From the NCBI GenBank assembly GCA_964474445.1, contig CAYYSJ010000002.1, forward strand, positions 183,774 to 247,773: a stretch of 64,000 nt of DNA, read 5' to 3'. Positions 7,505 through 36,915 of this stretch are shown here, one piece after another (position 1 is the stretch's first letter; each line of letters opens with the position of its first letter). The position numbers and the translations under genes were made by a program. The DNA comes from an uncultured Gammaproteobacteria bacterium (GTDB lineage: Bacteria > Patescibacteriota > Microgenomatia > Levybacterales > UBA12049). Below the pieces are notes generated by a model. It saw only the letters and a program-made list of their open reading frames with translations. It made no database searches and was not told the origin of the DNA.

Positions 7505-8965
7505 TTAGAAGTTGTTCCAGAGGACTTGATTCGTAACTTCGTGATGATAGACAACTTCTCCTGATTTCACTTTTGTCCCTAATTCTTTTGGTGACCTATC
7601 TGCAGTTGCTTGTTTGAATTTAAGATATTTTTGTTTGTTTTCTTCACCCAATATCTTTGTTACAAATTCACTTCCTTTAAAGAGCCTGAGTGCATCGTAG
7701 ACATTTCCCGGAAGCGTTTTCGTTCTGTCATTCTCGGAAGGTGTGAGACGTGTACCTTCAAGGCCTGTTCGAATGAGAGTATACAAGACAAGGTATGGAT
7801 TTGCATCTGGAGCAACAGATCTCACTTCTATACGAGCGGTTCGTTCATTTGCGACAGGAATTCGAATCATTGACCCTCTATCAATAGGCGATACTTTTAT
7901 TTGATTGGGTGCTTCAAAGTGAGGATCGAGTCTTCGATAAGCATTGACACTTGAATTAAGAACAAGACAAATTTCCTGAGCATGATGAAGTACTCGATAA
8001 ATAAAACTCCATGCTTCCTCAGAAAGCCCATCGTTACCTCCCTTTTTATAGAAAATATTTTTCCCATTTTTTGCAAGAGAAAAATTGGTATGCATACCGC
8101 TTCCATTAATACCAACAATTGGTTTAGGAAGAAATGTTGCAGTCATTCCCATTGTATGAGCAACTTGTCTACAAAGTAATTTGTATAGTTGAATTTTGTC
8201 GCATGCTTGTAATACTTCATCATAAGAAAAATTCATTTCGAATTGTGATGGTGCAACTTCTGGATGATCTTTTTCATTTTTAAATCCTAAAGCCCTTTGC
8301 GCTTCTGCTGCATTATCGATAAATCTTCGAAGTCCATCTAAGGGAAGTGAATTATAATATCCTCCTTGTGAAATCAATTGAAATCCTTGTTTTTCATCAA
8401 ATGTCTGTTCTGCATGCAGGCCATTAACAAGAAATCCTTCAATTTCAGCAGATGCATATGCCGTAAGCCCTTCTTTCTTTTTGAGATTTTCTGTATAGAG
8501 TTGGAGTTGCCCTCGAAAGTCAGAAACGTAGGGTGTATGATCTCTATCTAAGACATTTGCAAACATCAAAACTTTGCCAGGACCAAAAATGTCTGAGGGG
8601 AGATGTTTCATGCTTCCAAAATCAGGAGAAAGACGAAGATCAGATTCATGCTGTGCTGTAAAACCTCGAATCGATGATCCATCAAATGTTAAGTTATCAA
8701 ATGAATGAAGGAAAAATTTTTTATCATAATCAAGCATATGAAATCTTCCTTCTAAATCTGTAAAACAAAGTGTTATTGCTTTGAGTCTTTTTTCTTTTCC
8801 TAAATATTCTAATGTCTCTTGTTGTACTTTTTCTGATGAGAGCTTTTGTGCATTTTCAGCAAGTGTGAGATTCATTTCTTCCAAAACATCATAAGGAAGT
8901 TCAAGAAAATTTTTCATTTCAAGTGGTTCTGTAGTTACTGGTATAGACATTGTTTTTTTTGGCAT
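7505..8965 (-). CDS. glnA: glutamine synthetase (glutamate--ammonia ligase)
   Basis: 486 aa with the GS catalytic-domain signature KPIVGINGSGMHTNFSL, an N-terminal beta-grasp (FTDLEGRFH...DGSS) and a C-terminal nucleotide-binding region. Start MPKKT at 8965 (reverse complement). Confidence 0.75.
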   Translation of the reverse strand: MPKKTMSIPVTTEPLEMKNFLELPYDVLEEMNLTLAENAQKLSSEKVQQETLEYLGKEKRLKAITLCFTDLEGRFHMLDYDKKFFLHSFDNLTFDGSSIRGFTAQHESDLRLSPDFGSMKHLPSDIFGPGKVLMFANVLDRDHTPYVSDFRGQLQLYTENLKKKEGLTAYASAEIEGFLVNGLHAEQTFDEKQGFQLISQGGYYNSLPLDGLRRFIDNAAEAQRALGFKNEKDHPEVAPSQFEMNFSYDEVLQACDKIQLYKLLCRQVAHTMGMTATFLPKPIVGINGSGMHTNFSLAKNGKNIFYKKGGNDGLSEEAWSFIYRVLHHAQEICLVLNSSVNAYRRLDPHFEAPNQIKVSPIDRGSMIRIPVANERTARIEVRSVAPDANPYLVLYTLIRTGLEGTRLTPSENDRTKTLPGNVYDALRLFKGSEFVTKILGEENKQKYLKFKQATADRSPKELGTKVKSGEVVYHHEVTNQVLWNNF

Positions 8966-9277
8966 ACTATGTTGAAGACGACAATGTCAGAACTTGGAGA
9001 CTTCGTAGTCGGGGCCCTTCGATTATCTTAGGGTACATACTTCTACAATGAAGATATATTTTTTATAAACTTTTTGAAAAGAATTGTCAATAGGTAACTA
9101 TAAAAGAGAAATAATGTTCTAAAAAAATTTTAGAATTTTCAATTCATTATTTACAAGAAAAAATAATATGCATATACTAGAAGTATAGATAGATGAGTAA
9201 TAACGGATGAGAGAATGACTCTGTCAACTTTTATACGTATTGCTTGTAATACTAATGAAGAGGAGGTGATAAAAGTT

Positions 9278-9469
9278 ATGGCAAAAGGATGGTTACAATC
9301 AACTCTTGAAATGCTTGGTCTTTCTCAGAAAAAATCTGTTGCTGCACGAAAGCCTGCACGAAAAGCATCAAGACCTGCTGCAAAAAAAAGTAAAGTAGTA
9401 AAAGCAAAATCTACAGCAAAGAAAGTTGTTAAAAAAGCAGCAAAGACAACAAAAAAGAAAAAGAGATAA
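9278..9469 (+). CDS. small lysine/alanine-rich basic protein (histone H1-like / nucleoid-associated candidate)
   Basis: The internal ATG at 9278 is preceded by AGGAGGTGA at 9261-9269, a consensus SD, which the longer track ORF from 9215 lacks. 63-aa product MAKGWLQSTLEMLGLSQKKSVAARKPARKASRPAAKKSKVVKAKSTAKKVVKKAAKTTKKKKR. Followed by a hairpin plus T-run. Confidence 0.55.
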   Translation: MAKGWLQSTLEMLGLSQKKSVAARKPARKASRPAAKKSKVVKAKSTAKKVVKKAAKTTKKKKR

Positions 9470-9488
9470 TCGTTTTTATCCAAACTTA

Positions 9489-9540
9489 TCGCGTTAGTTA
9501 TTGAGAAGTCATAATTAGCGCGATATTTTTTTGTTGAAGT
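9489..9540 (+). terminator. rho-independent terminator-like hairpin after the small basic-protein gene
   Basis: ATCGCGTTAG...CTAATTAGCGCGAT imperfect stem followed by ATTTTTTTGTTG. Confidence 0.4.
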
Positions 9541-9552
9541 GGGTCATTTAGA

Positions 9553-10254
9553 TTATTGCCAAACGAGAAGAATAGCTTCGGCAATTTCTTTCATTGATTT
9601 TCTTTTATTCATTGATTCTGTTCTGATGATTTTAAATGCATCATCTTCATTAATATTTCTTACTTTCATTAAAACTCCTTTTGCTTTCTCAATAATTTTT
9701 CTCTCTTCCAATTTTTCTTCTAAGTCAGTTATTTTACTATCAACCACTGTCTTTGCAAAAACGGAGGAAATGATTTTTCCTATTGCTTCAACTACTTTTA
9801 TTTGTTGTTCTGAAAATTCATAAGGAACTTTATTCTGAAAATTCATGACTCCTACCACTCCTTGATTGTCAAGAATTGGAACAGAAAGAAATGCTTCATA
9901 TTTATCTTCTGGTAGTTCTTTAAAAAATTTAAAACGAGTGTCAAGAAAGGCTTGTTTGGCAATTGCAACGGTTTGTTTGTGTTGTGCTACCCAACCTGTA
10001 ATTCCTTCTCCAGGTTGCATACTAATATGCCCAACGATATCATTATGAGGTTGTTTAGAGGCAATAAGCGTAAACTGTTTTGACTGTTTATCGTAAAAAT
10101 AAATAAAGCATGAATCGACGGTAACAACGTCGTTTGCAATAGTCAGAAGTTTGTGTAAAAATTCCTGAAAGTCATATTGGTTAAAAACAACAATATCTGC
10201 AAGAAGATTAATGATGTCGGGCCAGGATGTTTTTGCTGATGGTCTGCTAAACAT
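9553..10254 (-). CDS. GAF-domain / ANTAR-domain RNA-binding antitermination regulator
   Basis: 233 aa. N-terminal GAF-like region (HNDIVGHISMQPGEGITGWVAQHKQ). C-terminal ANTAR consensus: EERKIIEKAKGVLMKVRNINEDDAFKIIRTESMNKRKSMKEIAEAILLV. Confidence 0.7.
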   Translation of the reverse strand: MFSRPSAKTSWPDIINLLADIVVFNQYDFQEFLHKLLTIANDVVTVDSCFIYFYDKQSKQFTLIASKQPHNDIVGHISMQPGEGITGWVAQHKQTVAIAKQAFLDTRFKFFKELPEDKYEAFLSVPILDNQGVVGVMNFQNKVPYEFSEQQIKVVEAIGKIISSVFAKTVVDSKITDLEEKLEERKIIEKAKGVLMKVRNINEDDAFKIIRTESMNKRKSMKEIAEAILLVWQ

Positions 10255-11889: not shown

Positions 11890-12375
11890 CTATAATTCTT
11901 TTACTAAAAGATCCAAAATGGTACTTGTTGAAATATTTTCTATTATTTTATTAACGTATACCACCTTTGATCCTGTTTCTTTTGCCTGTCTCTCTTTATG
12001 AAATGCATAGGGATCACCAAATGTGGTTGCAATTATAGCAGGTTGAAGAAGGTTTACAACGGTGTCATAATCTTTATCAGTCATTTTTGAAGGCAGCAAA
12101 ATGACATAATCGACAACTGACAAAGATGCAAGAAGATGGGCCCTTTGTTGTTGAGTATGAATTGGTCTGTCTACCCCTTTTTTTGCTTTTATTGCATCGT
12201 CTGATTCTAACATAACCATCAGAATATCTCCTTCTTCTTTTGCGTTTTCCAAAAGAGTGATATGACCAATATGTAGAATATCGAAACATCCTCCAGTCAG
12301 GACAATAGATTTTCCTTGTTGTCTTAGGTCATTATGTATTTTTTCTAGCTGATCAATTTTTAGAATTTTATCCAT
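11890..12375 (-). CDS. cytidylyltransferase-like nucleotidyltransferase (RfaE domain II / RibL / TagD-like)
   Basis: 161 aa with LTGGCFDILHIGHITLL (HxGH motif) and RPIHTQQQRAHLLASLSVVDYVIL, typical of this nucleotidyltransferase superfamily. Confidence 0.6.
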   Translation of the reverse strand: MDKILKIDQLEKIHNDLRQQGKSIVLTGGCFDILHIGHITLLENAKEEGDILMVMLESDDAIKAKKGVDRPIHTQQQRAHLLASLSVVDYVILLPSKMTDKDYDTVVNLLQPAIIATTFGDPYAFHKERQAKETGSKVVYVNKIIENISTSTILDLLVKEL

Positions 12376-13906: not shown

Positions 13907-15913
13907 ATGGATGATAATGTACTATTTTCTTCACAAGATAAGAATCAGGGTCAGAATTTACCGAATGCGAGTACTCAAGGGAATGCCGTTATGCAACCTT
14001 CTGTACCCCAATCTCCTGTTCATGCTGTTCCTGTAGCTCAAACTCAAGCAGCAGGCACTCTTCAGCAGGTGAATACTCAGGGAATACCAGCAACACCTCC
14101 TGTTCAAAATCCTATTTCCCAGCAAGCGCAGCCTGGTTCCCTTTATCCGGCAAATGCTTCATCTACTGTAAATGGGACAGTTCCTCCAGCTCCAGATGCT
14201 TTCCAACAGGTCGTTCAAGGATCTTCCCCTCAACAACCTTTTGTACCCCAGTCTCAGCAGACTCCTCTTTTGCAAACAACCCAAGATACAACTGCTACTA
14301 ATCCTCGATTTTCATTAGAAGATTTGTATGGGTCTTCTCAACCTGATAGACCACAAAGTACTCCTCAACCTTCTCAGGTTTTGACAAGTAATCCTCCTCT
14401 GGGAGTTATCCCTTCAGAAATGACATCTCCATTGGGAAATATTCAAATGATGGAACCAGAATTTGTGCAGAAAGAACCGGCTCCCGTTGTTCAGAGTCCT
14501 TCACTAACAGTAAAAACAGAAGAGGCTACTGCTTCTGCAGAAGTTTCTCCACCTTCAGGATCTTCTACTCCTCCATCACATGCGGAAGCTTTAGGTGCAA
14601 ATAATGGAGGATTTCGTTTTCCACCAATAGTCCTGAAGGTTATAGGAGGACTTTTCCTTGCACTTATCGCTATTATTGTGCTCAGCAGTATTGCAGCGTT
14701 ATTTAAAGGAAAATCTTCAGATAAACAGGTAACACTTACTTATTGGGGTCTTTGGGAGGATAGTAATGTATTCCAAAGTATTGTCAATGATTTCCATCGA
14801 CAAAATCCAAATATCACAATTTCTTATGTCAAACAAGATCCTGAAAAATATGCAGATAGGTTATTGACCCGAATGCAGAATGGGACAGGCCCAGATATCT
14901 TCAGATTTCATAACACATGGGTAACTCCATTACAAAATGTATTGTTACCACTTCCATCAACAGTAATTGATAAAAATCAATTGCAGCAAAAGTATTTTCC
15001 AGTCGTGAGTAATGATCTGGTGAAAAATGGTGCAGTATATGGCCTTCCACTTGAAATGGATACTCTCGTTTTATATACAAATAGGGATATTTTTGATCAT
15101 GCTGGAGTAAAAGTTCCAACTACATGGGACGAATTTTTAACTGTTTCGAAGGGGTTAACAGTGAAAGACACTGATGGTCATATTAAAACAGCAGGAGCTG
15201 CAATCGGAACCTATGAAAATATAACACATGCGCCTGATATTATTTCACTTCTCTTGTTGCAAAATGGAGCAAACCTACAGAAACTGCAAAATTCTCAAAA
15301 TGCAATTGATGCTCTCACTTTTTATACGTCATTTGCAAAGAACGATGATAGGGTTTGGGATAACACACTTGATTCGTCTCTTATGGCTTTTAGTCGAGGG
15401 AAAGTAGGGATGTATTTTGGGTATTCGTATGATTACTTTGCTATAAAAGCTGCTGCACCCCAACTCAACGTTGAAGTTTATCCCGTCCCACATCTCCCAG
15501 GAAGAGATATGTCTATTGCCAGTTACTGGTCTGAAGGAGTATCTAGTAAAAGTAAACATCCAAAGGAAGCATTTCTTTTCCTGCAATATCTTGCTCAGAA
15601 AGATGTTATGGCAAAATTGTATACCGAAGAAGCAAAAACAAGAGCATTTGGTGAATTATATCCAAGAAGTGACTTGGCAAGTAACCTATCAACCGTTCCT
15701 CTTCTGACTCCTTTTGTGAATCAAGCAGGGAAAGCAGTTTCTTCTTTTTTTGCATCGGATACAAAATATGATAGCTTTAACGGTGGACTTAACCGTTATT
15801 TGGGAAATGCTGTAAACTCAATGCTGAATAATACATCTGCAGATTCTGCAATTGCAACGCTTGCTCAAGGCGTATCTCAGATATTTAATCAATATGCCAC
15901 GCCTTCACAATAA
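13907..15913 (+). CDS. ABC-transporter extracellular solute-binding protein (family 1) with long N-terminal Pro/Gln/Ser-rich disordered region and TM anchor
   Basis: 668 aa. Residues ~1-230 are low-complexity P/Q/S/T-rich, followed by the TM helix VLKVIGGLFLALIAIIVLSSIAALF. The remainder is a sugar-type SBP fold (TLTYWGLWEDSNVFQSIVNDFHRQNPNITISYVKQDPEKYADRL...). Confidence 0.65.
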   Translation: MDDNVLFSSQDKNQGQNLPNASTQGNAVMQPSVPQSPVHAVPVAQTQAAGTLQQVNTQGIPATPPVQNPISQQAQPGSLYPANASSTVNGTVPPAPDAFQQVVQGSSPQQPFVPQSQQTPLLQTTQDTTATNPRFSLEDLYGSSQPDRPQSTPQPSQVLTSNPPLGVIPSEMTSPLGNIQMMEPEFVQKEPAPVVQSPSLTVKTEEATASAEVSPPSGSSTPPSHAEALGANNGGFRFPPIVLKVIGGLFLALIAIIVLSSIAALFKGKSSDKQVTLTYWGLWEDSNVFQSIVNDFHRQNPNITISYVKQDPEKYADRLLTRMQNGTGPDIFRFHNTWVTPLQNVLLPLPSTVIDKNQLQQKYFPVVSNDLVKNGAVYGLPLEMDTLVLYTNRDIFDHAGVKVPTTWDEFLTVSKGLTVKDTDGHIKTAGAAIGTYENITHAPDIISLLLLQNGANLQKLQNSQNAIDALTFYTSFAKNDDRVWDNTLDSSLMAFSRGKVGMYFGYSYDYFAIKAAAPQLNVEVYPVPHLPGRDMSIASYWSEGVSSKSKHPKEAFLFLQYLAQKDVMAKLYTEEAKTRAFGELYPRSDLASNLSTVPLLTPFVNQAGKAVSSFFASDTKYDSFNGGLNRYLGNAVNSMLNNTSADSAIATLAQGVSQIFNQYATPSQ

Positions 15914-16772
15914 CCTGCATCGGTTGATTTTCTCAACACTTGCATATTTTGATATATTTGATTTCCCATTAACACAAGAGGAAATACGACAATTCTTGCA
16001 CGTTTCAAAAAAAATCCCGCAACAACATGTTGAAAAATCACTCATTACAATTCCCCACAAAACTGTAGACAATAACACATTCTATTTTCTACCAGGCAGA
16101 GAAGCAATTGTACAGGGAAGATATCACAAAACAAAAATAAGTGAGACTAAACTCCGCGAGATGTTGCCCATTATACAACTGCTTGGTTTTCTCCCAAGTA
16201 TTACATTTATTGGTCTTAGCGGATCAGTTGCAATGAAAAATGGCGGGATGGAAAGTGATGTTGATGTTTTTGTTATTACTCTTCCATATACGTTATGGCT
16301 TACACGATTAAGTATTTGGATACTGCTTGGGGTATTCTCAAAAAGACGACAAAGAACTAGTACTGGTCAAGATAGCATATGCGTCAATTTGCTTATGGAT
16401 AGAAATCACCTTCTTTTCCCACTAAAAAAACATGACCTTTATACTGCCCATGAAATTATGCAAGTTCTTCCAGTTGTGAATAAATACGGAACATATGAAT
16501 TATTTTTAGAAAAAAATGCATGGGTCATGAAATACCTTGCCAATAGCTATACAGTCAATAATTCTTTGTATAGTGTACCATTTTGGTTAACTTGTGTAAG
16601 CTTTTTGTGTATACCAGTAGAGAGAGTATGTATGTGGATTCAACTTTTTTACATGAGGAATCATAAAACAATAGAACAGACAACAGCAAAATTAATTGCT
16701 TTTCATCCATATAACTATCACGATACAATTATGAATGAATACAAAAAAAGATTACAAACATATGGATTATAA
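15894..16772 (+). CDS. nucleotidyltransferase-domain protein (Pol-beta superfamily), function unknown
   Basis: Minimal nucleotidyltransferase motif GSVAMKNGGMESDVDVFVIT (GS...DxD). The start is chosen at the ATG overlapping the stop of the upstream SBP gene; the track ORF from 15852 would overlap it by 60 nt. Confidence 0.45.
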   Translation: MPRLHNNLHRLIFSTLAYFDIFDFPLTQEEIRQFLHVSKKIPQQHVEKSLITIPHKTVDNNTFYFLPGREAIVQGRYHKTKISETKLREMLPIIQLLGFLPSITFIGLSGSVAMKNGGMESDVDVFVITLPYTLWLTRLSIWILLGVFSKRRQRTSTGQDSICVNLLMDRNHLLFPLKKHDLYTAHEIMQVLPVVNKYGTYELFLEKNAWVMKYLANSYTVNNSLYSVPFWLTCVSFLCIPVERVCMWIQLFYMRNHKTIEQTTAKLIAFHPYNYHDTIMNEYKKRLQTYGL

Positions 16773-17754
16773 AACTGTTATTTGTGGTGGTACATTTGAT
16801 AGATTGCATGAAGGGCATAAATATTTTCTTCGTACCATTTTTTCATTAGGAAAACGGGTTTTGATTGGTTTAACTTCGGATACTTATACTAGACAATACA
16901 AAAAGAATGTTCTTCCATTTCAGAAGAGACTTGAGGATTTAAAAACATTTTTGGCAGAAGAAGGTCTTCTGATTCGTGCAGAAATTTTTTCTATTCAGGA
17001 TGTATATGGAAAAGCCATTGATCCAACGCTTTCATTGGATGCAATTATGGTAACAGACTCAACAAAAAGTGGGGGCGAAGCAATCAATAAAAAAAGAAGA
17101 GAACTTGGTTTGGCAGAATTACCGCTTGTTAGTATTTCACTTTTTAAGAATCATAATCACCTTGTTCTTTCTTCGACAAAAATTAGAGAGGGTGTTATTG
17201 GAAGACATGGAGAAATATACATGGATGATAGATGGAAAAAGCATACTCTTATATTACCAGTTGAGCTTCGTGGTATTCTCCATAAACCGTTCCACACGTT
17301 GCTTACCGGTCCTATTCCAAATGAACTTGTTACCCATCCTCAAACAATTGTCACCGTAGGAGATGCAACGACAAAGCGATTGAATCATGAAGGTTTAAAG
17401 CAAGTATTGTCTGTAGTGGATTTCTCGGTTGAAAGAAAATCCTTATTTCATTCTGTTACAGAATTAGAATTCTCAGGAGAAGAGGAAGTTCTTACTGTTG
17501 CAAATCCTTCTGGTCATATCACTCCACAGGTATGGGAAGTTTTACAAAAAGCCATTCTTCTGAGTCAGCAGAAGCGAGTTATTGTTCAGGTGGATGGAGA
17601 AGAGGATTTACTTGTCATCCCTCTTATTCTCTTATTGCCATTGGGATGGAATCTGTTTTACGGACAACCGAAAGAGGGAGTTGTCTATGTGCCAATTACG
17701 GAAGAGGTAAAGGAGAGAGTTTACCAATATCTTATCCAATTCGTGCGCGAATGA
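16735..17754 (+). CDS. fusion of archaeal-type phosphopantetheine adenylyltransferase (cytidylyltransferase-like) with DUF359 (GTP-dependent dephospho-CoA kinase-like) domain
   Basis: N-terminal ~160 aa VICGGTFDRLHEGHKYFL...LIGLTSD matches archaeal PPAT (COG1019-type). C-terminal ~170 aa carries TVGDATTKRL and VIVQVDGEEDLLVIP, resembling DUF359/COG1909 proteins. The start may be the second ATG at 16762. Confidence 0.55.
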   Translation: MNTKKDYKHMDYKTVICGGTFDRLHEGHKYFLRTIFSLGKRVLIGLTSDTYTRQYKKNVLPFQKRLEDLKTFLAEEGLLIRAEIFSIQDVYGKAIDPTLSLDAIMVTDSTKSGGEAINKKRRELGLAELPLVSISLFKNHNHLVLSSTKIREGVIGRHGEIYMDDRWKKHTLILPVELRGILHKPFHTLLTGPIPNELVTHPQTIVTVGDATTKRLNHEGLKQVLSVVDFSVERKSLFHSVTELEFSGEEEVLTVANPSGHITPQVWEVLQKAILLSQQKRVIVQVDGEEDLLVIPLILLLPLGWNLFYGQPKEGVVYVPITEEVKERVYQYLIQFVRE

Positions 17755-17819
17755 TTACTCCAGGTTATTGACAAAAAAGCTTAGCTCAGATACTATTCTT
17801 TAAGTTAAGAAAATCAGTC

Positions 17820-17852
17820 TCCCTCTCGTCATGTGAGGGATTTTCTTTAAAA
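17820..17852 (+). terminator. hairpin + T-run between the PPAT-fusion gene and greA
   Basis: TCCCTCtcgtcatgtGAGGGA followed by TTTTCTTT. Confidence 0.35.
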
Positions 17853-17857
17853 GATAT

Positions 17858-18316
17858 ATGGATAAAAAAATATACTTAACACAAGAAGGATTGGATGAAT
17901 TACAGCAGGAATATCAAGATTTAACAAAGGTCAAGAGACCAGAGGTCTTGGAAAGACTTTCTCAGGCTCGAAATCAAGGTGATTTGTCAGAAAATGCTGA
18001 ATATACAGCTGCACGAGATGAACTATCTTTTATTGATGGAAGGATCGATGAATTGGAGGAACTTCTCAAGCAGGTCTCTCTTATTCAAGATAGTGGGAAA
18101 GGTTCTGTTGCATTGGGTTCTAAAGTCACCTTAAAGGTTGGAGCTCGAGAAGATGTCTATACTGTTGTTGGAGAATGGGAAGCAGATCCAGCAGAAAAGA
18201 AAATTTCTCATGAATCTCCTCTTGGAAAAGCACTCCTTGGTAAGTCACAAGGTGAACAAGTTGAAGTAGATGCTCCAGCAGGTAAAGTCCTCTATACAGT
18301 AGTTGCTGTTAAATAA
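17858..18316 (+). CDS. greA: transcription elongation factor GreA
   Basis: 152 aa. N-terminal coiled-coil with DLSENAEYTAARDE, C-terminal FKBP-like domain, full-length GreA match. Confidence 0.9.
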   Translation: MDKKIYLTQEGLDELQQEYQDLTKVKRPEVLERLSQARNQGDLSENAEYTAARDELSFIDGRIDELEELLKQVSLIQDSGKGSVALGSKVTLKVGAREDVYTVVGEWEADPAEKKISHESPLGKALLGKSQGEQVEVDAPAGKVLYTVVAVK

Positions 18317-18451
18317 GTTCCCCCCGTCGCTAACTTTCGTAAGCAGTTTAAATTGTATATCGTTTTTTGTTAAATATCTAACATTTTGCATTGTTTTGTT
18401 GATTTTTTTGTAAAAATTGACCATTGCTTTCTCCTCTGCTACTCTCGTCTT

Positions 18452-19474
18452 ATGAATCTTCCTTCAAAAATGGTTGCTGTTGTTAAAGAACAAGCAGAAC
18501 CAGGAGTTGTTATTAAAAAAGTACCTGTTCCACGACCTGGGAAAGATGAGGTCTTAGTTAAAGTAAAAGCTGCCTCAATTTGTGGTACAGATATTAATAT
18601 CTATGATTGGACTCCCTGGGCTGCAGGACACATCAATCCTCCTGCCGTTATTGGACATGAGGTTGTAGGAGAAATTCTTGAGATTAATAGCGAGAATCCT
18701 CAAGGTTTGCAGATAGGTGATCTGGTATCTTCTGAGACTCATATTTTTTGTGGAAAATGTTATCAGTGTAGGATTGGCAACCAACACATTTGTGAGAATA
18801 TGCAGCTTTTTGGTATTGGAAGAAATGGAGGATTTGCAGAATATGCAGTTATTCCTGTTAGGACATCATGGAAAAATGATAAATCTATTCCTGTTGAATG
18901 GATGAGTGCTCAAGAACCACTTGGGAATGCTGTTCATGTAGTTCAAAAGGCTGGAGTGATGGGCAAAACTGTAGTTGTTTTTGGACTCGGGCCAACAGGA
19001 CTTTGTGCAATCGCTGTTGCGAAGGCTTATGGTGCAACAAAAGTAATCGGTATTAACAGAGGAGAATATCGACGTAATCTTGGGAAAGCAATGGGAGCGG
19101 ACGAAGTCTACGATAGTTTACCGAAAAAATATGAGAATGCAGTAGATGTTGTGCTTGAGATGTCTGGAAATGCAGATGTTATTCAAAGTGCTTTAAGAGC
19201 AGCACGAATTGCTGGCATAGTTATATTCTTTGGTATTCCGAAAAAAGAAGTAATGCTTGATATTGGCAAGTATTTTATTAATAAAGAGTTAACTGCAAAA
19301 AGTGTTTTTGGAAGAAAAATCTGGGAAACATGGTATCAAGTAAAAGAACTCCTTACCTCGAAAAAAATTGATCTTGGGAAGATGATTACTCATGAGTTCA
19401 AGTTACAAGAATTTGAAAAAGCGATGGGAGTCATGAAGTCGGGAGAATGTGGTAAGATACTTTTAAGACCATAA
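18452..19474 (+). CDS. tdh: L-threonine 3-dehydrogenase (Zn-dependent MDR family)
   Basis: Start chosen at MNLPSKMVAVVKE. Zn-ADH motifs ASICGTDINIYDW and GHEVVGEI, Rossmann GLGPTGLCA. Immediately followed by kbl, giving the classic tdh-kbl pair. Confidence 0.85.
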   Translation: MNLPSKMVAVVKEQAEPGVVIKKVPVPRPGKDEVLVKVKAASICGTDINIYDWTPWAAGHINPPAVIGHEVVGEILEINSENPQGLQIGDLVSSETHIFCGKCYQCRIGNQHICENMQLFGIGRNGGFAEYAVIPVRTSWKNDKSIPVEWMSAQEPLGNAVHVVQKAGVMGKTVVVFGLGPTGLCAIAVAKAYGATKVIGINRGEYRRNLGKAMGADEVYDSLPKKYENAVDVVLEMSGNADVIQSALRAARIAGIVIFFGIPKKEVMLDIGKYFINKELTAKSVFGRKIWETWYQVKELLTSKKIDLGKMITHEFKLQEFEKAMGVMKSGECGKILLRP

Positions 19475-19476
19475 CT

Positions 19477-20676
19477 ATGTCATACGTATCTTCTTTCTAC
19501 AAAAAATTAGCAGAGCAAAATGCTTCTGGGAAATGGCCTCATGTTATTGAGTCAGGAGAAGGTGCATATCTCACAATTGAAGGGGTAAAAAAAATTAATT
19601 TTTGCTCAAGTCACTATTTAGGACTTGCTGTAGATCCACGTTTAGCTGATGCAGTTGTTGATGCAGTGAAAAAATATGGTATTGGGACAGGCTACCGTAC
19701 ACTTGCTGGCACACATAAACTTCATCTTGAGCTTGAGGAAGCAATAGCACAGTTTAAGGGGACAGAAAAAGCAGTTGTTCTCTCAAGTGCTTACATGGCA
19801 AATGCTGCAGCAATGCAAACAATTCTTGAAAAGGAAGATATTATTATTTCAGATGAGTTAAATCATGCATCTATTATTGATGCAGTAAGACTAACAGGGG
19901 TAAAAAATAAGTTTATTTATAAACATGCTGACACTGCAGACTTGGAAGCACGGCTGATTGAGGCAAAAGAAGTACAGAAAACGCCGAAAGCAAATGGTGA
20001 GATTCCACTTATTCTTATTGTAACAGATGGTGTTTTTTCTATGGATGGAGATTTAGCTCCACTCCCTGAAATTGTAAAGCTTGCAAAGCAGTATGATGCA
20101 CTCACGATGGTTGATGATGCACACGGAGAAGGAGTTTTGGGAAATGGAGGACGGGGAATTGTTGATCATTTTGGACTTGCAGGACAAGTTGATATTGAAG
20201 TAGGAAGTCTTTCTAAGGCATTTTCCGTCATGGGTGGATTTATTGCAGGTAAAAAACCGTTAATAGATTTTTATATGCTCAAGGCTCGTCAAAGACTTTT
20301 CTCTATCGCACTTACCATTCCAGATACAGCAGCAGCACTCAAAGCTATACAAATTCTTCTTGAGTCAGATGCTCTTGTAAAAAAATTATGGGACAATGTC
20401 TCATACTTGCAGGAAGGCTTTAAAAAATTGGGTTTTGATACGGGTAACTCAAAGACTCCAATTATTCCTGTTATGTTAGGTGATGAAGAAGTTGCAAGAC
20501 AATTTAGTGCAAAATTATTTGATTTAGATGTCTTTGCAACTCCAATTGTTTTCCCAATGGTGGGTAAAGGAAAGGCTCGCATCAGAGTCATTGCAAGTGC
20601 GTCTTTCTCAAAAGAAGATATGGATAAGGGCCTTGCTGCATTTGAAAAAGTTGGAAAAGAACTGAAAGTCTTATAG
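19477..20676 (+). CDS. kbl: 2-amino-3-ketobutyrate CoA ligase (glycine C-acetyltransferase), PLP-dependent
   Basis: 399 aa class-II aminotransferase / alpha-oxoamine synthase fold with PLP-lysine region GSLSKAFSVMGGF. Adjacent to tdh with a 2-nt gap. Confidence 0.85.
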   Translation: MSYVSSFYKKLAEQNASGKWPHVIESGEGAYLTIEGVKKINFCSSHYLGLAVDPRLADAVVDAVKKYGIGTGYRTLAGTHKLHLELEEAIAQFKGTEKAVVLSSAYMANAAAMQTILEKEDIIISDELNHASIIDAVRLTGVKNKFIYKHADTADLEARLIEAKEVQKTPKANGEIPLILIVTDGVFSMDGDLAPLPEIVKLAKQYDALTMVDDAHGEGVLGNGGRGIVDHFGLAGQVDIEVGSLSKAFSVMGGFIAGKKPLIDFYMLKARQRLFSIALTIPDTAAALKAIQILLESDALVKKLWDNVSYLQEGFKKLGFDTGNSKTPIIPVMLGDEEVARQFSAKLFDLDVFATPIVFPMVGKGKARIRVIASASFSKEDMDKGLAAFEKVGKELKVL

Positions 20677-21603: not shown

Positions 21604-23715
21604 ATGGAAGATTCAAGTTTGAAAAAAGTCCGTTTAGAAAAAATAGAAAAATTAAAAGAGGTAGGGATTAATCCTTATCCTCATTCTTTTAACAAAACAC
21701 ATACTGTTGCTCAGACTCGAGATAGCGAAGGGAAAGTGGTCTGCACAGCAGGTCGTATGATGTCATATAGAGAACACGGTAATATCGCATTTGCTGATAT
21801 CGTCGATGAAACAGGAAGAATTCAGATATTCTTCCAGAAAAAAATCCTTGGGGAATCATTTAGACGCCTGAAATTACTTGATATAGGGGATTTCGTTGGA
21901 ATTGAAGGAGAAGTCGGTAAGACGGTTGCTGGGGAAATATCTATTATCCCAACAGAATATACTCTCTTAAGTAAGTCTCTCCGTCCTCTTCCTAATGAGT
22001 GGTATGGGTTAAAAGATACAGAAACGCGATACAGACAGCGATATTTGGATCTGATTCTGAATCCAACAGTAAGGGAAAGGTTTAACATTCGCACAAAGGT
22101 GATTAGTGGAGTGCGTGAGTATCTGGATAGCTTAGGTTTCTGGGAAGTAGAGACGCCAGTATTGCAACCCATGTATGGTGGTGCGAATGCAAAACCGTTT
22201 ACCACTCATTTGAATGCGCTAGATCAAATGATGTATTTGAGAATTGCTGTTGAATTGTACATAAAGCGATTAATTGCTGGTGGATATGAAAAAGTTTATG
22301 AAATTGCAAAAGATTTTCGAAATGAAGGGGTAGACCAAACTCATTCTCCAGAATTCACAATGATTGAGTGGTATGAGTCATATGTCGATTATCATACCAT
22401 GATGGATAGGGCAGAAGGACTTCTGAAATTCCTTGCTACCAAAATCTATGGCACGACTGTTCTACAAGTAGAAGACAAAACAATTGATATTGGTAATACG
22501 TGGCCGAGAATAACTATGTCTGATATTCTCAAAGAAAAACTAAGTCTGGATGTCGAAGCTGAAACACATGAGAGCCTATTGAAATTCTTAAAAGAAAAAT
22601 CCCCTGATGCGGAAGTAATTGGCACAGAAACAAAAGGACAGCTCATCTTTATGATTTTTGATCACCTTATTCCAAAAACATTGAAAGAGCCAACATGGAT
22701 TGTTGATTATCCAGCAGATATTAGTCCTTTTGCTCGTCCTCACAGAGAAAAGGAAGGGTGGGTTGAGCGATTTGAAGGATATATTGGTGGAAAGGAAATT
22801 TTTGATGGATGGACAGAAATTACCGATGCAAAAATTCAGAGAAAGGCATGGGAAAAAGATACCGATGCGGCACGCCCTGATAAAGAAGAAGCACAACATG
22901 TTGATGAAGATTATCTTACAGCGATGGAATATGGTATGCCTCCATATGGGGGTATTGGAGTAGGTATTGATAGATTAACTATGCTTTTTACCAACACATG
23001 GGCCATTAAAGAATTAATTCTATTCCCAACACTGAAGAGAGATAAAACTGAAAAAGAAGAAGTAGAAGAGGTACAACAAAAGACTTCCCATGGCGCTACA
23101 AATAATTTGAAACAAGCTGATGTTTCGAGTGTGACATGGACACGAGATGAAGCATATAATCTCTTAACACAGTATATGTCTTCACCTAATCTTATCAAAC
23201 ACTCTCTTGCAGCTGAGGCAGCGATGAGAGGCATTTATAGATACCTCTATGGGGGAAACGGGAATGTGCATGATGAAGAAATCTGGGGAGTGACAGGACT
23301 TTTGCATGATGTAGATTATGAAGTTGCCCAAAAAGAGGAGAAGTTAGAATTTCATGGAAGACTTCTTTTTGATCAAAATCCTCAATTAATCCCTGAACCG
23401 ATTCAACACGCAATTAAAGCGCATAACTATACCAAGACAGGGACAGATCCTGAAACTGACCTTGATTGGGCAATAGCAACAGTTGATCAACTAACTGGCT
23501 TAGTTGTTTCCAGCGCACTTATTCATCCTGATAAAAAATTGGGATCTATTGATAAGGATTTTGTTCTCAAACGTTTTCATACACCGGGTTTCTCAAAAGG
23601 GGTAGATAGGGAAAATATTAAAAATTGTGAGACAAGACTTGGAATAGCACTTCAGGATTTTATTCAGATTACTTTGGAATCCATGCAACAAATTTCAGAT
23701 AAAATGGGTCTCTAG
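21604..23715 (+). CDS. lysS: lysyl-tRNA synthetase (class II) with C-terminal HD-domain phosphohydrolase extension
   Basis: Residues ~1-500 show the class II LysRS anticodon-binding OB fold and catalytic core (FRNEGVDQTHSPEFTMIEWY; GGIGVGIDRLTMLF). Residues ~510-703 carry HD motifs H-x-L-A-A-E-A...GLLHDVDY. Confidence 0.85.
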   Translation: MEDSSLKKVRLEKIEKLKEVGINPYPHSFNKTHTVAQTRDSEGKVVCTAGRMMSYREHGNIAFADIVDETGRIQIFFQKKILGESFRRLKLLDIGDFVGIEGEVGKTVAGEISIIPTEYTLLSKSLRPLPNEWYGLKDTETRYRQRYLDLILNPTVRERFNIRTKVISGVREYLDSLGFWEVETPVLQPMYGGANAKPFTTHLNALDQMMYLRIAVELYIKRLIAGGYEKVYEIAKDFRNEGVDQTHSPEFTMIEWYESYVDYHTMMDRAEGLLKFLATKIYGTTVLQVEDKTIDIGNTWPRITMSDILKEKLSLDVEAETHESLLKFLKEKSPDAEVIGTETKGQLIFMIFDHLIPKTLKEPTWIVDYPADISPFARPHREKEGWVERFEGYIGGKEIFDGWTEITDAKIQRKAWEKDTDAARPDKEEAQHVDEDYLTAMEYGMPPYGGIGVGIDRLTMLFTNTWAIKELILFPTLKRDKTEKEEVEEVQQKTSHGATNNLKQADVSSVTWTRDEAYNLLTQYMSSPNLIKHSLAAEAAMRGIYRYLYGGNGNVHDEEIWGVTGLLHDVDYEVAQKEEKLEFHGRLLFDQNPQLIPEPIQHAIKAHNYTKTGTDPETDLDWAIATVDQLTGLVVSSALIHPDKKLGSIDKDFVLKRFHTPGFSKGVDRENIKNCETRLGIALQDFIQITLESMQQISDKMGL

Positions 23716-36500: not shown

Positions 36501-36895
36501 CTTCTCCCAACGGAGCAGATTTGCAAAATCCAAATGTAACTGGGAATGTGCACTTTGCAGTTGATATCAAGTATGCAAACAATAGTAATGTACCAACAGG
36601 TAAAGTTTCTATGGATTTTTCAAGTGGAAAGATTAGCTTAATAGCAACTTCATTTAGGTATCTGGTGATAAATGGCACACAAGCTATCCTGACAGGATCA
36701 GGAACTGTTAATGGAACCTCGGGATATAGCTTCCTTGTATCTGGAATTGATGGTACACAAACAGGAACAGGATACATAAGATTCCAGATTATAGATCCAG
36801 CAGGTAATGTTATCTATGATACACAAACTGGAGCAGCAGTGAATGCAGCACCTACTACAGCAGTGACGGGTGGCATGATTGTTGTGCATAATTAA
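33503..36895 (+). CDS. large secreted cell-surface protein with carboxypeptidase-regulatory-like (Cna-B-type) domains, three ~195-aa tandem repeats and PKD domains
   Basis: 1130 aa with signal peptide MKAKIAGIVFFLLIIFSGLIAPKIVLA. Repeated TLSGHI(L/H/Y)GPLGNPLP(N/D)Q...TDANGYY units, then PKD motifs (VDYGDGQGT...; WNWGDGTTSPG...TVTDNDG). S/T/N-rich throughout. Confidence 0.7.
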   Translation: MKAKIAGIVFFLLIIFSGLIAPKIVLATTFNLSGKISDSSGNGIPNAIIAVIDTTTNNSVANTTSDASGNYTVSVNGGTYNIQVNPPANSNFISAIAPSRSISSDTIVNFILTPSGVVTLSGHILGPLGNPLPNQVVGMGFSGHPISTTTDANGYYALQTTPGTQFLDFYSQSANDLSLSVPQNYLIESTSASYSITQNTVLDVTIPAKKITVHVQDASNNPVSNITIGASQINTNSTNLTIPGVSTAMQGGSSYNSSSGPKTDTSGNATLWLIPGNYNLFATPPSGSNFSLTQVPNMSITGDTQQTITLIQSVTLSGHIHDPLGNPLPDQTIQVGFSGNTITKTTDANGFYSIQTTPGTQFLEFFATNPLSLNAPQHYLLDSGGPVYSITQNTVLDVTIPAKKVTVHVQDFANNPVSNVIINANQLGNTNINLPGVPNVMIGSSSYGSYGTGPATDSSGNVTLWLIAGNYTFTAKPSSGSNFSQTQLTNISITGDTQQTITLIQPVTLSGHIYGPLGNPLPNQTVGMGFSGHPITATTDVNGYYSLQTTPGNNFLNFYPVTTNSFSLNAPQYYLIQTQAASYSITQNTVLDVTIPAKKITVHVQDASNNPVSNVVIGTSENGNTGVNLPGLPSGLLTASSSYGNRGLGPATDASGNVTLWLIPGNYNLFATPPSGSIYAQFILYNISITNDQTEIISLQFVHAAPVTTAILTTRLSDETYSDPTTVSLSAVASSGFTVTNTYYTVDGGAKQIYTTPFTVSGSGSHMITYWSIDSLGVSETPNTKSFSIDDPPKISSIPGATINEGSTYTATGSFTDTDSSSWTGTVDYGDGQGTQPLTINPDKTFTLSHQYLDNKPNNAPYTVTVNITDNQGAGSTVTTSVVVLNVTPSVGSITVQSNPVIQGSPFSVNSVIFSDPGVLDTHTAIWNWGDGTTSPGTVVETNGSGYVSATDHVYSAVGTYQITLTVTDNDGAPGTSVFQYAVVYQPSRSGLFSGHSIFASPNGADLQNPNVTGNVHFAVDIKYANNSNVPTGKVSMDFSSGKISLIATSFRYLVINGTQAILTGSGTVNGTSGYSFLVSGIDGTQTGTGYIRFQIIDPAGNVIYDTQTGAAVNAAPTTAVTGGMIVVHN
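33854..35600 (+). repeat. three tandem intragenic repeats (~580-590 bp each) within the surface-protein gene
   Basis: Units start near 33854, 34442 and 35021. Units 1 and 3 share 78-nt (34073-34150 vs 35242-35319) and 49-nt (34315-34363 vs 35480-35528) identical DNA stretches. Unit 2 is more diverged. Confidence 0.75.
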
Positions 36896-36915
36896 GACAG
36901 GAGAGGTCTATATAA

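What the first reader, a model, noticed from the sequence alone, without database searches (positions are those of the whole stretch)
16735..17754. Single polypeptide combining archaeal-type PPAT with a DUF359 (GTP-dependent dephospho-CoA kinase-like) domain
The N-terminal cytidylyltransferase-like domain (GGTFDRLHEGHKYFL) resembles archaeal phosphopantetheine adenylyltransferase rather than bacterial CoaD. The C-terminal half has TVGDATTKRL and VDGEEDLLVIP blocks like DUF359/COG1909, the family shown in Thermococcus to be the GTP-dependent dephospho-CoA kinase. A fusion would catalyse the last two CoA-biosynthesis steps with archaeal-type enzymes in a bacterium. This suggests an archaeal-like or horizontally acquired CoA pathway and a lineage with reduced metabolism.
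Basis: partly seen in the sequence, partly recalled or inferred. Interest (0 to 1): 0.55.

Follow-up and report, generated by a model that had tools for sequence, protein, structure and literature searches.

The report
Fused archaeal-type CoA synthase in CPR bacterium
This gene in a tiny-genome (CPR/Patescibacteria) bacterium encodes one protein that joins the archaeal versions of the last two enzymes of coenzyme A synthesis; the reading is correct, but the same fusion is already known from archaea and is common in CPR genomes, so it is a solid annotation, not a new kind of system.

Summary
ORF 16735..17754 (+) encodes an archaeal/eukaryotic-type phosphopantetheine adenylyltransferase (PPAT, aa 11-162) fused to a DUF359 GTP-dependent dephospho-CoA kinase (DPCK, aa 173-335). 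Both halves pass curated thresholds. Both match solved archaeal structures by sequence and by predicted fold. Every catalytic signature is kept: HxGH and SST..R in the PPAT half, and the three Asp residues validated by mutagenesis in Thermococcus TK1697. These residues are invariant in 81 of 81 fused homologs.

The window is bacterial (GreA, SecA, MutS/L, UppP, RF). It shares a core-gene synteny block with Levybacteria-type CPR genomes, and the gene's composition is native.

The architecture is not new. It was the published clue that identified archaeal DPCK (Shimosaka 2019). It forms a large family: 677 clusters at 50% identity, found in many CPR lineages, DPANN archaea and Poseidoniales. NCBI names it only as PPAT.

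No canonical coaD, coaE, coaBC or pantothenate kinase lies in the 64 kb, but their absence from the whole genome could not be tested. Verdict: interpretation supported; new member of a known kind; moderate-to-low interest. The start codon is probably 16762, not 16735.

The parts
16735..17754 (+). CDS of the bifunctional PPAT/DPCK protein (longest ORF, 339 aa; probable true start at 16762, giving 330 aa)
   Evidence: ORF list. Homolog N-termini align to M10. NCBI protein P0001 is 330 aa at 100% identity. Residues 1-10 have pLDDT about 54. A start at 16762 gives the same -11 nt overlap with the upstream ORF as in L006, L011 and L019.
16765..17220 (+). N-terminal archaeal/eukaryotic-type phosphopantetheine adenylyltransferase domain (aa 11-162)
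   Evidence: NCBIfam PRK00777 140.2 bits (cut-off 104), aa 11-162. PDB 3do8 E 5.7e-20. Foldseek 3do8 target-normalised TM 0.80-0.85, rmsd 1.8-1.9 A, 36% identity.
16807..16818 (+). HxGH nucleotidyltransferase motif (H25-E-G27-H28) within GGTFDRLHEGH
   Evidence: H25, G27 and H28 are invariant in 81 of 81 fused homologs.
17170..17187 (+). SST..R motif of the nucleotidyltransferase fold (S146-S147-T148-K-I-R151)
   Evidence: S147 in 79 of 81 and R151 in 81 of 81. Aligns to ISSTRIKRG of 3do8.
17221..17250 (+). Short inter-domain linker (aa 163-172)
   Evidence: Lies between the PPAT and DPCK matches. Length is variable in alignment A1. pLDDT is 87-88 in the 10-residue blocks spanning aa 141-170.
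17251..17739 (+). C-terminal DUF359 / GTP-dependent dephospho-CoA kinase domain (aa 173-335)
   Evidence: Pfam PF04019 106.8 bits (cut-off 25). NCBIfam NF041125 aa 173-333. PDB 8jvc E 2.1e-23. Foldseek 8jvc/8jvg target-normalised TM 0.80-0.85, 34-35% identity.
17362..17364 (+). Codon for D210, equivalent to catalytic Asp48 of TK1697 (TVGD motif)
   Evidence: Aligned. Invariant in 81 of 81. D48A abolishes complementation in T. kodakarensis (PMC6650551).
17419..17421 (+). Codon for D229, equivalent to catalytic Asp67 of TK1697
   Evidence: Aligned. Invariant in 81 of 81. D67A phenotype reported in PMC6650551.
17605..17607 (+). Codon for D291, equivalent to Asp125 of TK1697 (GEED motif)
   Evidence: Aligned. 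G288, E289 and D291 are invariant in 81 of 81. D125A phenotype reported in PMC6650551.
15852..16772 (+). Context: upstream conserved 306-aa ORF of unknown function whose stop overlaps the start of the fusion gene (probable co-transcription or translational coupling)
   Evidence: No Pfam or NCBIfam hit at threshold. Weak Pol-beta nucleotidyltransferase signal, 17.9 bits against a cut-off of 26.9. A homolog sits directly upstream in 11 of 14 Levy-type loci (overlapping the fusion start in 9), but is separated from the fusion in L013, L021 and L027.
17858..18316 (+). Context: greA, a bacterial marker immediately downstream
   Evidence: Pfam GreA_GreB_N and GreA_GreB. Syntenic in 16 loci.

Best explanation
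The gene encodes a bifunctional CoA synthase built from archaeal-type parts. The N-terminal Rossmann-like nucleotidyltransferase domain (PPAT) transfers AMP from ATP to 4'-phosphopantetheine, giving dephospho-CoA. The C-terminal DUF359 domain is a thiamine-pyrophosphokinase-like fold, not a P-loop. It phosphorylates the 3'-OH of dephospho-CoA to give CoA, using an acidic catalytic site (D210, D229, D291) and probably GTP as donor, as in Thermococcus TK1697. It is a native, long-resident housekeeping gene of a Levybacteria-type CPR (Patescibacteria) bacterium and belongs to a large fused family shared by CPR bacteria, DPANN archaea and Poseidoniales. Shown here: the domain architecture, family membership at curated thresholds, fold, conservation of catalytic residues, the bacterial CPR context and the wide distribution. 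Inferred: the two enzymatic activities, the GTP preference, an archaeal origin by ancient inter-domain transfer, and that this is the organism's only route for the last two steps.
For: Domains: (PF04019 107 bits, PF01467 50 bits, PRK00777 140 bits above its 104-bit cut-off). Solved relatives by sequence: (8jvc 2e-23; 3do8 6e-20). AF2 model with pLDDT 92.6 and pTM 0.86. Foldseek gives target-normalised TM 0.80-0.85 to both 8jvc/8jvg and 3do8, with bacterial CoaD at only 15-18% identity. Catalytic residues H25/G27/H28, R151, D210, D229 and D291 are invariant in 81 of 81 fused homologs, and both halves are similarly conserved (36% and 33% mean pairwise identity). The three Asp residues were validated by mutagenesis, and GTP-dependent DPCK activity was shown for TK1697 (PMC6650551). 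No Walker A motif is present. Bacterial context: GreA, SecA, MutS/L, UppP, RF, VanW. Synteny with Levybacteria loci. Native composition: GC 36.7% against 36.1% for the window. Independent assembly. Family size: 677 clusters at 50% identity with E<=1e-30; the best 150 are 243-435 aa and nearly all align over almost the whole query. A CoA-consuming Tdh/Kbl-like gene pair lies directly downstream.
Against: No biochemistry exists for any bacterial member. The Thermococcales equivalog models are not reached (96 against 300 bits; 95 against 290 bits); this is expected for lineage-specific models but means no equivalog-level call. The nucleotide donor (GTP or ATP) cannot be read from the sequence with the information available. 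Whether canonical coaD/coaE exist elsewhere in the genome is untested, because the source contig could not be retrieved. No upstream CoA genes (coaBC, pantothenate kinase) are in the window, so the source of 4'-phosphopantetheine is unknown.
Confidence: 0.87

Rival explanations
1. The protein is bifunctional as described but is redundant. The genome also carries canonical bacterial coaD and coaE, so it does not define an 'archaeal-type' CoA pathway for the organism.
For: Only 64 kb of a contig of at least 283 kb could be examined. A second small cytidylyltransferase is present at 11890..12375.
Against: That second enzyme is RfaE-domain-II-like (111 bits) and not CoaD. No PF01121 (CoaE), CoaBC or PanK family was found in any ORF of 100 aa or more in the window. 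Invariant catalytic residues across hundreds of CPR lineages argue for an essential, non-redundant role. CPR genomes are generally scored as lacking the bacterial CoA module (PMC11659515; that study covers Saccharibacteria only).
Confidence: 0.15
2. The kinase half uses ATP or another NTP instead of GTP in CPR bacteria. The reaction is the same but the donor differs from the Thermococcus enzyme.
For: Donor specificity has been measured only for TK1697. The CPR domain is only 34-35% identical to it.
Against: The fold and all known catalytic residues are conserved. Nothing in the data suggests a changed nucleotide pocket, but the guanine-contact residues could not be obtained from the literature available.
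Confidence: 0.2
3. One or both halves have drifted to another substrate, for example a different nucleotidyltransferase reaction (FMN, NMN or a sugar phosphate) coupled to a thiamine-pyrophosphokinase-like activity, so the protein does not make CoA.
For: The CTP_transf_like superfamily is functionally diverse. DUF359 is distantly related to thiamine pyrophosphokinases. Equivalog cut-offs are not reached.
Against: The best family hit by far is PPAT (140 bits; the next non-PPAT cytidylyltransferase-type model scores 48 bits or less). Fusion of exactly these two consecutive steps is the published functional link. The closest solved structures for the two halves are PPAT and DPCK.
Confidence: 0.05
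4. The gene is archaeal DNA mis-assembled or mis-binned into a bacterial contig.
For: Mis-binning does occur in this family: L024 ('Kaiserbacteria') and L025 ('Norongarragalinales') are 99.3-99.6% identical in DNA. Several record titles are wrong.
Against: The gene overlaps the upstream ORF and is flanked by greA. The same order recurs in at least 10 Levybacteria-type loci and in an independent assembly. Composition is native.
Confidence: 0.01

Closest known systems
PPAT-arCOG04076 (DUF359) fusion proteins of uncultured marine group II/III euryarchaeota (e.g. AIF21550.1), described by Shimosaka, Makarova, Koonin and Atomi, mBio 2019
   Same: Same two domains in the same order (PPAT at the N-terminus, DUF359 at the C-terminus), similar length (about 330-340 aa), and the same invariant catalytic residues. 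They align end to end at 28-32% identity.
   Different: The host is a CPR bacterium, not an archaeon. The Poseidoniales proteins form their own clade with 100% bootstrap support, separate from the CPR sequences.
TK1697, the stand-alone GTP-dependent dephospho-CoA kinase of Thermococcus kodakarensis (PDB 8jvc, 8jvf, 8jvg)
   Same: The C-terminal half shares the fold (target-normalised TM 0.80-0.85), 34-35% identity, and the equivalents of Asp48, Asp67 and Asp125.
   Different: TK1697 is a separate 177-aa protein. Here the domain is fused to PPAT, and the Thermococcales equivalog score is not reached (96 against 300 bits).
Archaeal PPAT (A. fulgidus 3do8; P. abyssi and TK2128 type, COG1019 / PRK00777)
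   Same: The N-terminal half shares 36% identity, rmsd 1.8 A, and the HxGH and ISST motifs.
   Different: Here it is fused to the next enzyme of the pathway.
Eukaryotic CoA synthase (COASY)
   Same: One polypeptide carries out the last two CoA steps, with PPAT followed by DPCK. The COASY domain content is stated in PMC10899607 (abstract listed); that its PPAT domain belongs to the archaeal/eukaryotic type is my own background knowledge and was not tested here.
   Different: The COASY kinase domain is a CoaE-type P-loop kinase. This protein has no Walker A motif, and its kinase is the non-homologous DUF359 fold. It is an analogous fusion, not a homologous one.
Bacterial CoaD plus CoaE
   Same: The same two reactions.
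   Different: CoaD is related only at superfamily level (15-18% identity, TM about 0.64). CoaE is unrelated. Neither gene is found in the window.

Membership tests
Archaeal/eukaryotic-type PPAT (NCBIfam NF001985 / PRK00777; Pfam PF01467) | Score above the curated cut-off over the full model length | tested here: met
   140.2 bits against a cut-off of 104, model positions 3-153 of 157. PF01467 scores 50.1 against 21.
Archaeal/eukaryotic-type PPAT | (H/T)xGH and ISSTxxR nucleotidyltransferase motifs | tested here: met
   H25-E-G-H28 and S146-S-T-K-I-R151 are present; conserved in 79-81 of 81 homologs.
Archaeal/eukaryotic-type PPAT | Fold of a solved archaeal PPAT | tested here: met
   3do8: target-normalised TM 0.80-0.85, rmsd 1.8-1.9 A, 36% identity.
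Archaeal/eukaryotic-type PPAT | Adenylyl transfer to 4'-phosphopantetheine | not testable with these tools
   Requires an enzyme assay or complementation.
GTP-dependent dephospho-CoA kinase (Pfam PF04019 DUF359 / arCOG04076) | Score above the Pfam gathering threshold over the full model | tested here: met
   106.8 bits against 25, model positions 1-124 of 126.
GTP-dependent dephospho-CoA kinase | Three conserved Asp residues (TK1697 D48, D67, D125) shown by mutagenesis to matter | tested here: met
   D210, D229 and D291 align to them and are invariant in 81 of 81. The mutagenesis is reported in PMC6650551.
GTP-dependent dephospho-CoA kinase | Fold of the solved enzyme | tested here: met
   8jvc/8jvg: E 5e-15, target-normalised TM 0.80-0.85.
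GTP-dependent dephospho-CoA kinase | Equivalog-level score (NF041125, Thermococcales model) | tested here: not met
   96.1 bits against a cut-off of 300. The model is lineage-specific, so this excludes only 'Thermococcales ortholog' and not family membership.
GTP-dependent dephospho-CoA kinase | GTP as the preferred phosphate donor; DPCK activity | not testable with these tools
   Requires kinetics. Residues contacting guanine could not be obtained.
Bacterial CoaD (canonical PPAT) | Sequence-level match to CoaD models or structures | tested here: not met
   No CoaD model among NCBIfam hits at E<=1. No bacterial CoaD chain in the PDB sequence search at E<=1. Only fold-level similarity at 15-18% identity.
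CoaE-type P-loop dephospho-CoA kinase / eukaryotic COASY | Walker A P-loop kinase domain (PF01121) | tested here: not met
   No G....GK[ST] motif. No PF01121 hit.

The most novel reading that the evidence does not exclude
CPR bacteria as a group do not lack CoA synthesis, as module-based reconstructions suggest. Instead they have replaced bacterial CoaD and CoaE with a single fused archaeal-type PPAT/GTP-DPCK, exchanged anciently with DPANN archaea. This enzyme is their only CoA-pathway enzyme, so these episymbionts make CoA by salvaging 4'-phosphopantetheine (or pantetheine) from hosts. A 'pan-archaeal core' gene would then be a hallmark of a major bacterial radiation.
Probability: 0.35. Interest if true: 0.55.

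Novelty: new member of a known kind. Interest (0 to 1): 0.33.

Why it matters
There are three practical consequences.

1. Annotation. NCBI names these proteins only 'pantetheine-phosphate adenylyltransferase', so the kinase half, and with it the final step of CoA synthesis, goes unrecorded in CPR genomes. Pipelines that look for bacterial CoaD/CoaE will score CPR as unable to finish CoA.

2. Physiology. If this is the only CoA enzyme in these genomes, the nutrient these symbionts need from partners is 4'-phosphopantetheine or pantetheine, and not CoA itself. That is relevant to cultivation.

3. Evolution. DUF359 was described as one of 218 pan-archaeal core genes, and in 2019 only archaeal members were retrieved. 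Its broad presence, always fused, in CPR bacteria and DPANN archaea adds a clean case to the list of genes shared between the two ultra-small radiations.

Tried and rejected
1. Retrieving the source contig to scan the whole genome for coaD, coaE, coaBC and PanK. P0001 is not in the contig index, and neighbouring genes lead only to Logan contigs of 4.7 kb or less. Genome-wide absence therefore remains untested.

2. The second cytidylyltransferase-like ORF (11890..12375) as a possible canonical CoaD. Rejected: it is RfaE-domain-II-like (111 bits) and scores only 39.7 bits on the PPAT model.

3. Looking for a conserved functional partner gene. Neighbour clustering over 80 loci shows only lineage-specific synteny, and the recurrent neighbours are glycosyltransferases, an aaRS, Rpe, transketolase, Ham1 and Cdc6. 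None is a CoA gene. The upstream 306-aa ORF is adjacent in most Levy-type loci but not all.

4. Resolving the origin of the fusion with trees. The NJ tree of the kinase half with stand-alone outgroups is star-like. Bootstrapped NJ of full-length proteins supports only shallow clades: Poseidoniales 100%, Micrarchaeota/Norongarragalinales 82%, Gottesmanbacteria 97%. CPR monophyly and the donor lineage stay unresolved.

5. Literature on the fusion in CPR/Patescibacteria. Five searches found nothing relevant. The structural paper for 8jvc was not in the library, so GTP-site residues could not be checked.

6. AFDB fold search, to see the UniProt naming of such proteins. The library was unavailable.

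7. Recent horizontal transfer. Rejected because GC and GC3 match the neighbouring genes.

8. The count of 562 from the genome scan is not a count of fusions. The pattern used lies in the PPAT motif, so stand-alone PPATs may be included. Only the 80 retained loci are verified as full-length fusions.
Full report
OBSERVATION. The window contains an uninterrupted ORF at exactly 16735..17754 on the + strand (339 aa, ATG start). A 100%-identical protein of 330 aa is in NCBI on a 283,663-bp contig (P0001). The same 339-aa gene, with the same upstream ORF and the same downstream greA and dehydrogenase genes, was assembled independently from sequencing run SRR12266073 (L081). The fusion is therefore real and not a frameshift or assembly artefact.

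WHAT THE TWO HALVES ARE. Pfam finds CTP_transf_like at aa 16-152 (E 4e-13) and DUF359 at aa 212-335 (E 7.7e-31, 107 bits against a 25-bit threshold). NCBIfam places aa 11-162 in the archaeal-type pantetheine-phosphate adenylyltransferase subfamily PRK00777, at 140 bits against a curated cut-off of 104. It places aa 173-333 on the GTP-dependent dephospho-CoA kinase model at 96 bits. The Thermococcales-specific equivalog cut-offs of about 290-300 bits are not reached, as expected for a distant lineage. No bacterial CoaD model appears among the hits.

Against solved structures by sequence, the C-terminal half matches T. kodakarensis GTP-dependent DPCK (8jvc, E 2e-23) and the N-terminal half matches the A. 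fulgidus PPAT (3do8, E 6e-20). No bacterial CoaD chain is reached. An AlphaFold2 model built on 37 homologs is confident (mean pLDDT 92.6, pTM 0.86). Foldseek against the PDB returns the same two proteins first: 8jvc/8jvg with target-normalised TM 0.80-0.85 and 34-35% identity, and 3do8 with TM 0.80-0.85, rmsd 1.8-1.9 A and 36% identity. Bacterial CoaD structures follow at only 15-18% identity and TM about 0.64. The protein has no Walker A motif, so the kinase is not of the CoaE or COASY type.

ACTIVE SITES. Shimosaka et al. (mBio 2019, PMC6650551) showed that TK1697 is a GTP-dependent DPCK. They also showed that D48A, D67A and (more weakly) D125A impair complementation. In the HMMER alignment to 8jvc these residues correspond to D210, D229 and D291 of the window protein. 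I compared the window protein with the 80 fused proteins extracted from species-representative genomes. D210, D229, D291, G288 and E289 are invariant in 81 of 81, and so are F21, D22, H25, G27, H28 (the HxGH motif), R65 and R151 of the PPAT half. S147 is kept in 79 of 81. The two halves are about equally conserved among CPR sequences (mean pairwise identity 36% and 33%). Both halves are therefore under purifying selection. That both activities are retained is an inference from this conservation.

THE HOST AND THE GENOMIC SETTING. All recognisable housekeeping genes in the 64 kb are bacterial: greA immediately downstream, secA, mutS, mutL, a ClpB/ClpC-type ATPase, a PCRF/RF-1 release factor, uppP (BacA), tsaD, glnA, and a VanW protein with a peptidoglycan-binding domain. 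No tRNA or Rfam RNA is present.

The block tsaD - DUF192 - RfaE-like nucleotidyltransferase - vanW - solute-binding protein - unknown 306-aa ORF - fusion - greA is shared with loci L001-L022. Their reliable titles are Levybacteria/Levyibacteriota or 'Patescibacteria group'. Several loci titled 'uncultured Gammaproteobacteria' share the block and must be mislabelled. The organism is thus a Levybacteria-type member of the Candidate Phyla Radiation; this is an inference from synteny and closest relatives. The gene's GC (36.7%) and GC3 (26%) match the window (36.1%) and its neighbours (GC3 22-28%), so it is a long-resident gene and not a recent import.

START CODON. Homologs begin at the residue aligned with M10, NCBI's protein also starts there, and residues 1-10 are disordered in the model. 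A start at 16762 overlaps the upstream ORF by 11 nt, exactly as in L006, L011 and L019. The true start is therefore probably 16762. No Shine-Dalgarno-like motif precedes either ATG.

OTHER CoA GENES. No ORF of 100 aa or more in the window matches CoaE (PF01121), CoaBC or a pantothenate kinase. The one other small cytidylyltransferase (11890..12375, minus strand) is RfaE-domain-II-like and not CoaD.

Across 80 loci, neighbours are conserved only within lineages, and none of the recurrent neighbours is a CoA gene.

The organism does need CoA. Directly downstream of greA lie a threonine-dehydrogenase-like gene and a glycine C-acetyltransferase (Kbl)-like gene. Their best NCBIfam hits are Tdh at 368 bits and the BioF/Kbl family model TIGR01825 at 480 bits; the top glycine C-acetyltransferase model, NF005394, scores 427 bits. 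All are just under the curated cut-offs. By established biochemistry, this pair converts threonine plus CoA into glycine plus acetyl-CoA.

HOW COMMON, AND WHERE. The word-indexed search returned 119 relatives. About 108 of them carry both Pfam domains at 300-390 aa. Named ones are 'pantetheine-phosphate adenylyltransferase' from Patescibacteria or Levybacteria.

The exhaustive HMMER search of 1.84 billion cluster representatives found 677 clusters with E<=1e-30. The best 150 are 243-435 aa (148 of them at least 313 aa), and nearly all align over almost the whole query. Single-domain relatives score far weaker (E>=1e-17), so I infer that nearly all of the 677 are fusions.

In species-representative genomes the 80 best loci are all full-length fusions. 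Their titles span these groups:
- CPR: Levy-, Gottesman-, Roizman-, Woese-, Beckwith-, Chisholm- and Kaiserbacteria, Parcubacteria, Peribacteria and Saccharimonadales. This includes one complete genome, CP011210.1.
- Archaea: Micrarchaeota, Norongarragalinales, Aenigmatarchaeota, and Poseidoniales/Thalassarchaeaceae.

I verified one DPANN case independently of its title. L023 has radA (Rad51 family, 316 bits) next to the fusion, followed by a Rad50-Mre11-HerA cluster. Cluster members confirm that the 28-31%-identical marine proteins are from Poseidoniales.

RELATION TO WHAT IS KNOWN. The PPAT-arCOG04076 fusion in uncultured group II/III euryarchaeota is exactly the observation that led Shimosaka et al. 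to test TK1697. Makarova et al. 2019 list DUF359 as the last uncharacterised member of the 218-gene pan-archaeal core, predicted from domain fusions to act in CoA synthesis. So the architecture and its function are published for archaea.

That paper's PSI-BLAST retrieved only arCOG04076 members, and bacteria are not mentioned. Five full-text searches found no paper describing the fusion in CPR/Patescibacteria. Absence from this library is not proof that it is undescribed, and the architecture is visible in public annotation: JGI names it 'UPF0218 family/phosphopantetheine adenylyltransferase'.

A bootstrapped NJ tree of the 81 fusions gives a Poseidoniales/Thermoplasmatota clade (100%), a Micrarchaeota/Norongarragalinales clade (82%) and several CPR subclades. 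Deep nodes are unresolved. A tree of the kinase half with stand-alone outgroups is star-like. An archaeal origin is the parsimonious reading, because the kinase is pan-archaeal and I saw it in bacteria only in CPR and only fused. The donor lineage and the number of transfers are not established.

MECHANISM (best explanation, confidence about 0.87). The protein is a bifunctional CoA synthase.
- Step 1, N-terminal domain: ATP plus 4'-phosphopantetheine gives dephospho-CoA plus PPi. The HxGH and SST..R motifs hold the nucleotide, as in other class-I-like nucleotidyltransferases (established knowledge of the fold).
- Step 2, C-terminal domain: dephospho-CoA plus NTP gives CoA plus NDP, using an acidic, thiamine-pyrophosphokinase-like site (D210, D229, D291). 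GTP is the likely donor by homology with TK1697.

The architecture, fold and residue conservation are shown. The activities, the donor preference and any substrate channelling are inferred. The protein is an analogue of eukaryotic COASY: the steps and the domain order are the same, but the kinase fold is non-homologous.

VERDICT. The feature is a correctly recognised member of a known, widespread fused family, found in a bacterial radiation where the literature I could search does not discuss it. Novelty: new member of a known kind. Interest is moderate-to-low (0.33). The more interesting open reading is that this is the sole CoA enzyme of CPR bacteria, implying 4'-phosphopantetheine salvage and an ancient CPR-DPANN exchange. 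That reading is not excluded, and it is directly testable with whole-genome scans and a simple enzyme assay.

Noticed in passing
window 15852-16772 (+): Conserved 306-aa ORF with no family assignment. It has only a sub-threshold Pol-beta nucleotidyltransferase signal (PF18765, 17.9 bits against 26.9; motif GLSGSVAM..DVDVFVIT). Its stop overlaps the fusion gene's start. Its homolog lies directly upstream of the fusion in 11 of 14 Levybacteria-type loci (overlapping the start in 9), but abuts greA in L013 and L021 with the fusion elsewhere.
   Followed up: partly
window 11890-12375 (-): Second small cytidylyltransferase-fold protein (161 aa). It is RfaE-domain-II / heptose-1-phosphate adenylyltransferase-like (TIGR02199, 111 bits, below its 181-bit cut-off) and is not CoaD. 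It is part of the conserved tsaD-DUF192-NTase-vanW block in Levybacteria-type loci. Its substrate is unknown.
   Followed up: partly
window 18386-20676 (+): Adjacent Tdh-like (368 bits) and Kbl/BioF-family (480 bits; top glycine C-acetyltransferase model 427 bits) genes, just below the equivalog cut-offs. This looks like a threonine-to-glycine-plus-acetyl-CoA module, unusual metabolic content for a CPR genome. It is shared with only a few related loci (Tdh-like in L003; Kbl-like in L003 and L013).
   Followed up: partly
L024 (MFMA01000018.1, 'Kaiserbacteria') and L025 (DATDSY010000113.1, 'Norongarragalinales archaeon'): The two contigs are 99.3-99.6% identical in DNA over about 7.8 kb, yet are assigned to a bacterial MAG and an archaeal MAG. 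At least one is mis-binned. In the tree the protein groups with the DPANN clade.
   Followed up: partly
L005, L007, L008, L012, L019, L022 and others; L069: Many species-representative MAGs titled 'uncultured Gammaproteobacteria/Pseudomonadales' share the Levybacteria synteny block and are evidently CPR. 'Balneola sp.' L069 carries Cdc6/Orc1 and clusters with Poseidoniales, so it is archaeal. Record titles in this collection are unreliable for these bins.
   Followed up: partly
P0112, P0113, P0115 (328 aa, alignment A1): A subgroup of fused proteins in which Pfam no longer recognises the PPAT half. The GGTF strand is missing (sequence begins ...NLFDRLHLGH), while the DUF359 half keeps all its catalytic residues. 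The adenylyltransferase half may be degenerating or re-purposed.
   Followed up: no
window 7505-10254 (-): A GAF-ANTAR RNA-binding antiterminator-type regulator lies next to glutamine synthetase. This may be a nitrogen-regulation pair, and it is shared with L001 only.
   Followed up: no
window 21604-23715 (+): A class II Lys/Asp/Asn-type aminoacyl-tRNA synthetase of 703 aa. The catalytic core ends near aa 477, leaving an unassigned C-terminal extension of about 225 aa.
   Followed up: no
window 33503-37701 (+): A 1130-aa protein with CarboxypepD_reg, PKD and Big-like repeats, followed by a 261-aa CarboxypepD_reg protein. These are probably cell-surface or adhesion proteins. They have no homologs in the related loci.
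   Followed up: no
window 38060-39844 (+) and 55581-57479 (-): A MEDS-PAS histidine kinase with no adjacent response regulator noticed, and a 632-aa HAD/S6PP-like phosphatase whose C-terminal region of about 380 aa has no family match.
   Followed up: no
window 17768-17839 (+): In the 103-nt gap between the fusion gene and greA there is a promoter-like site (TTGACA-17-TACTAT, 10 of 12 matches) and a weak terminator-like hairpin (17823-17839). These are consensus matches only. They hint that greA has its own promoter.
   Followed up: no
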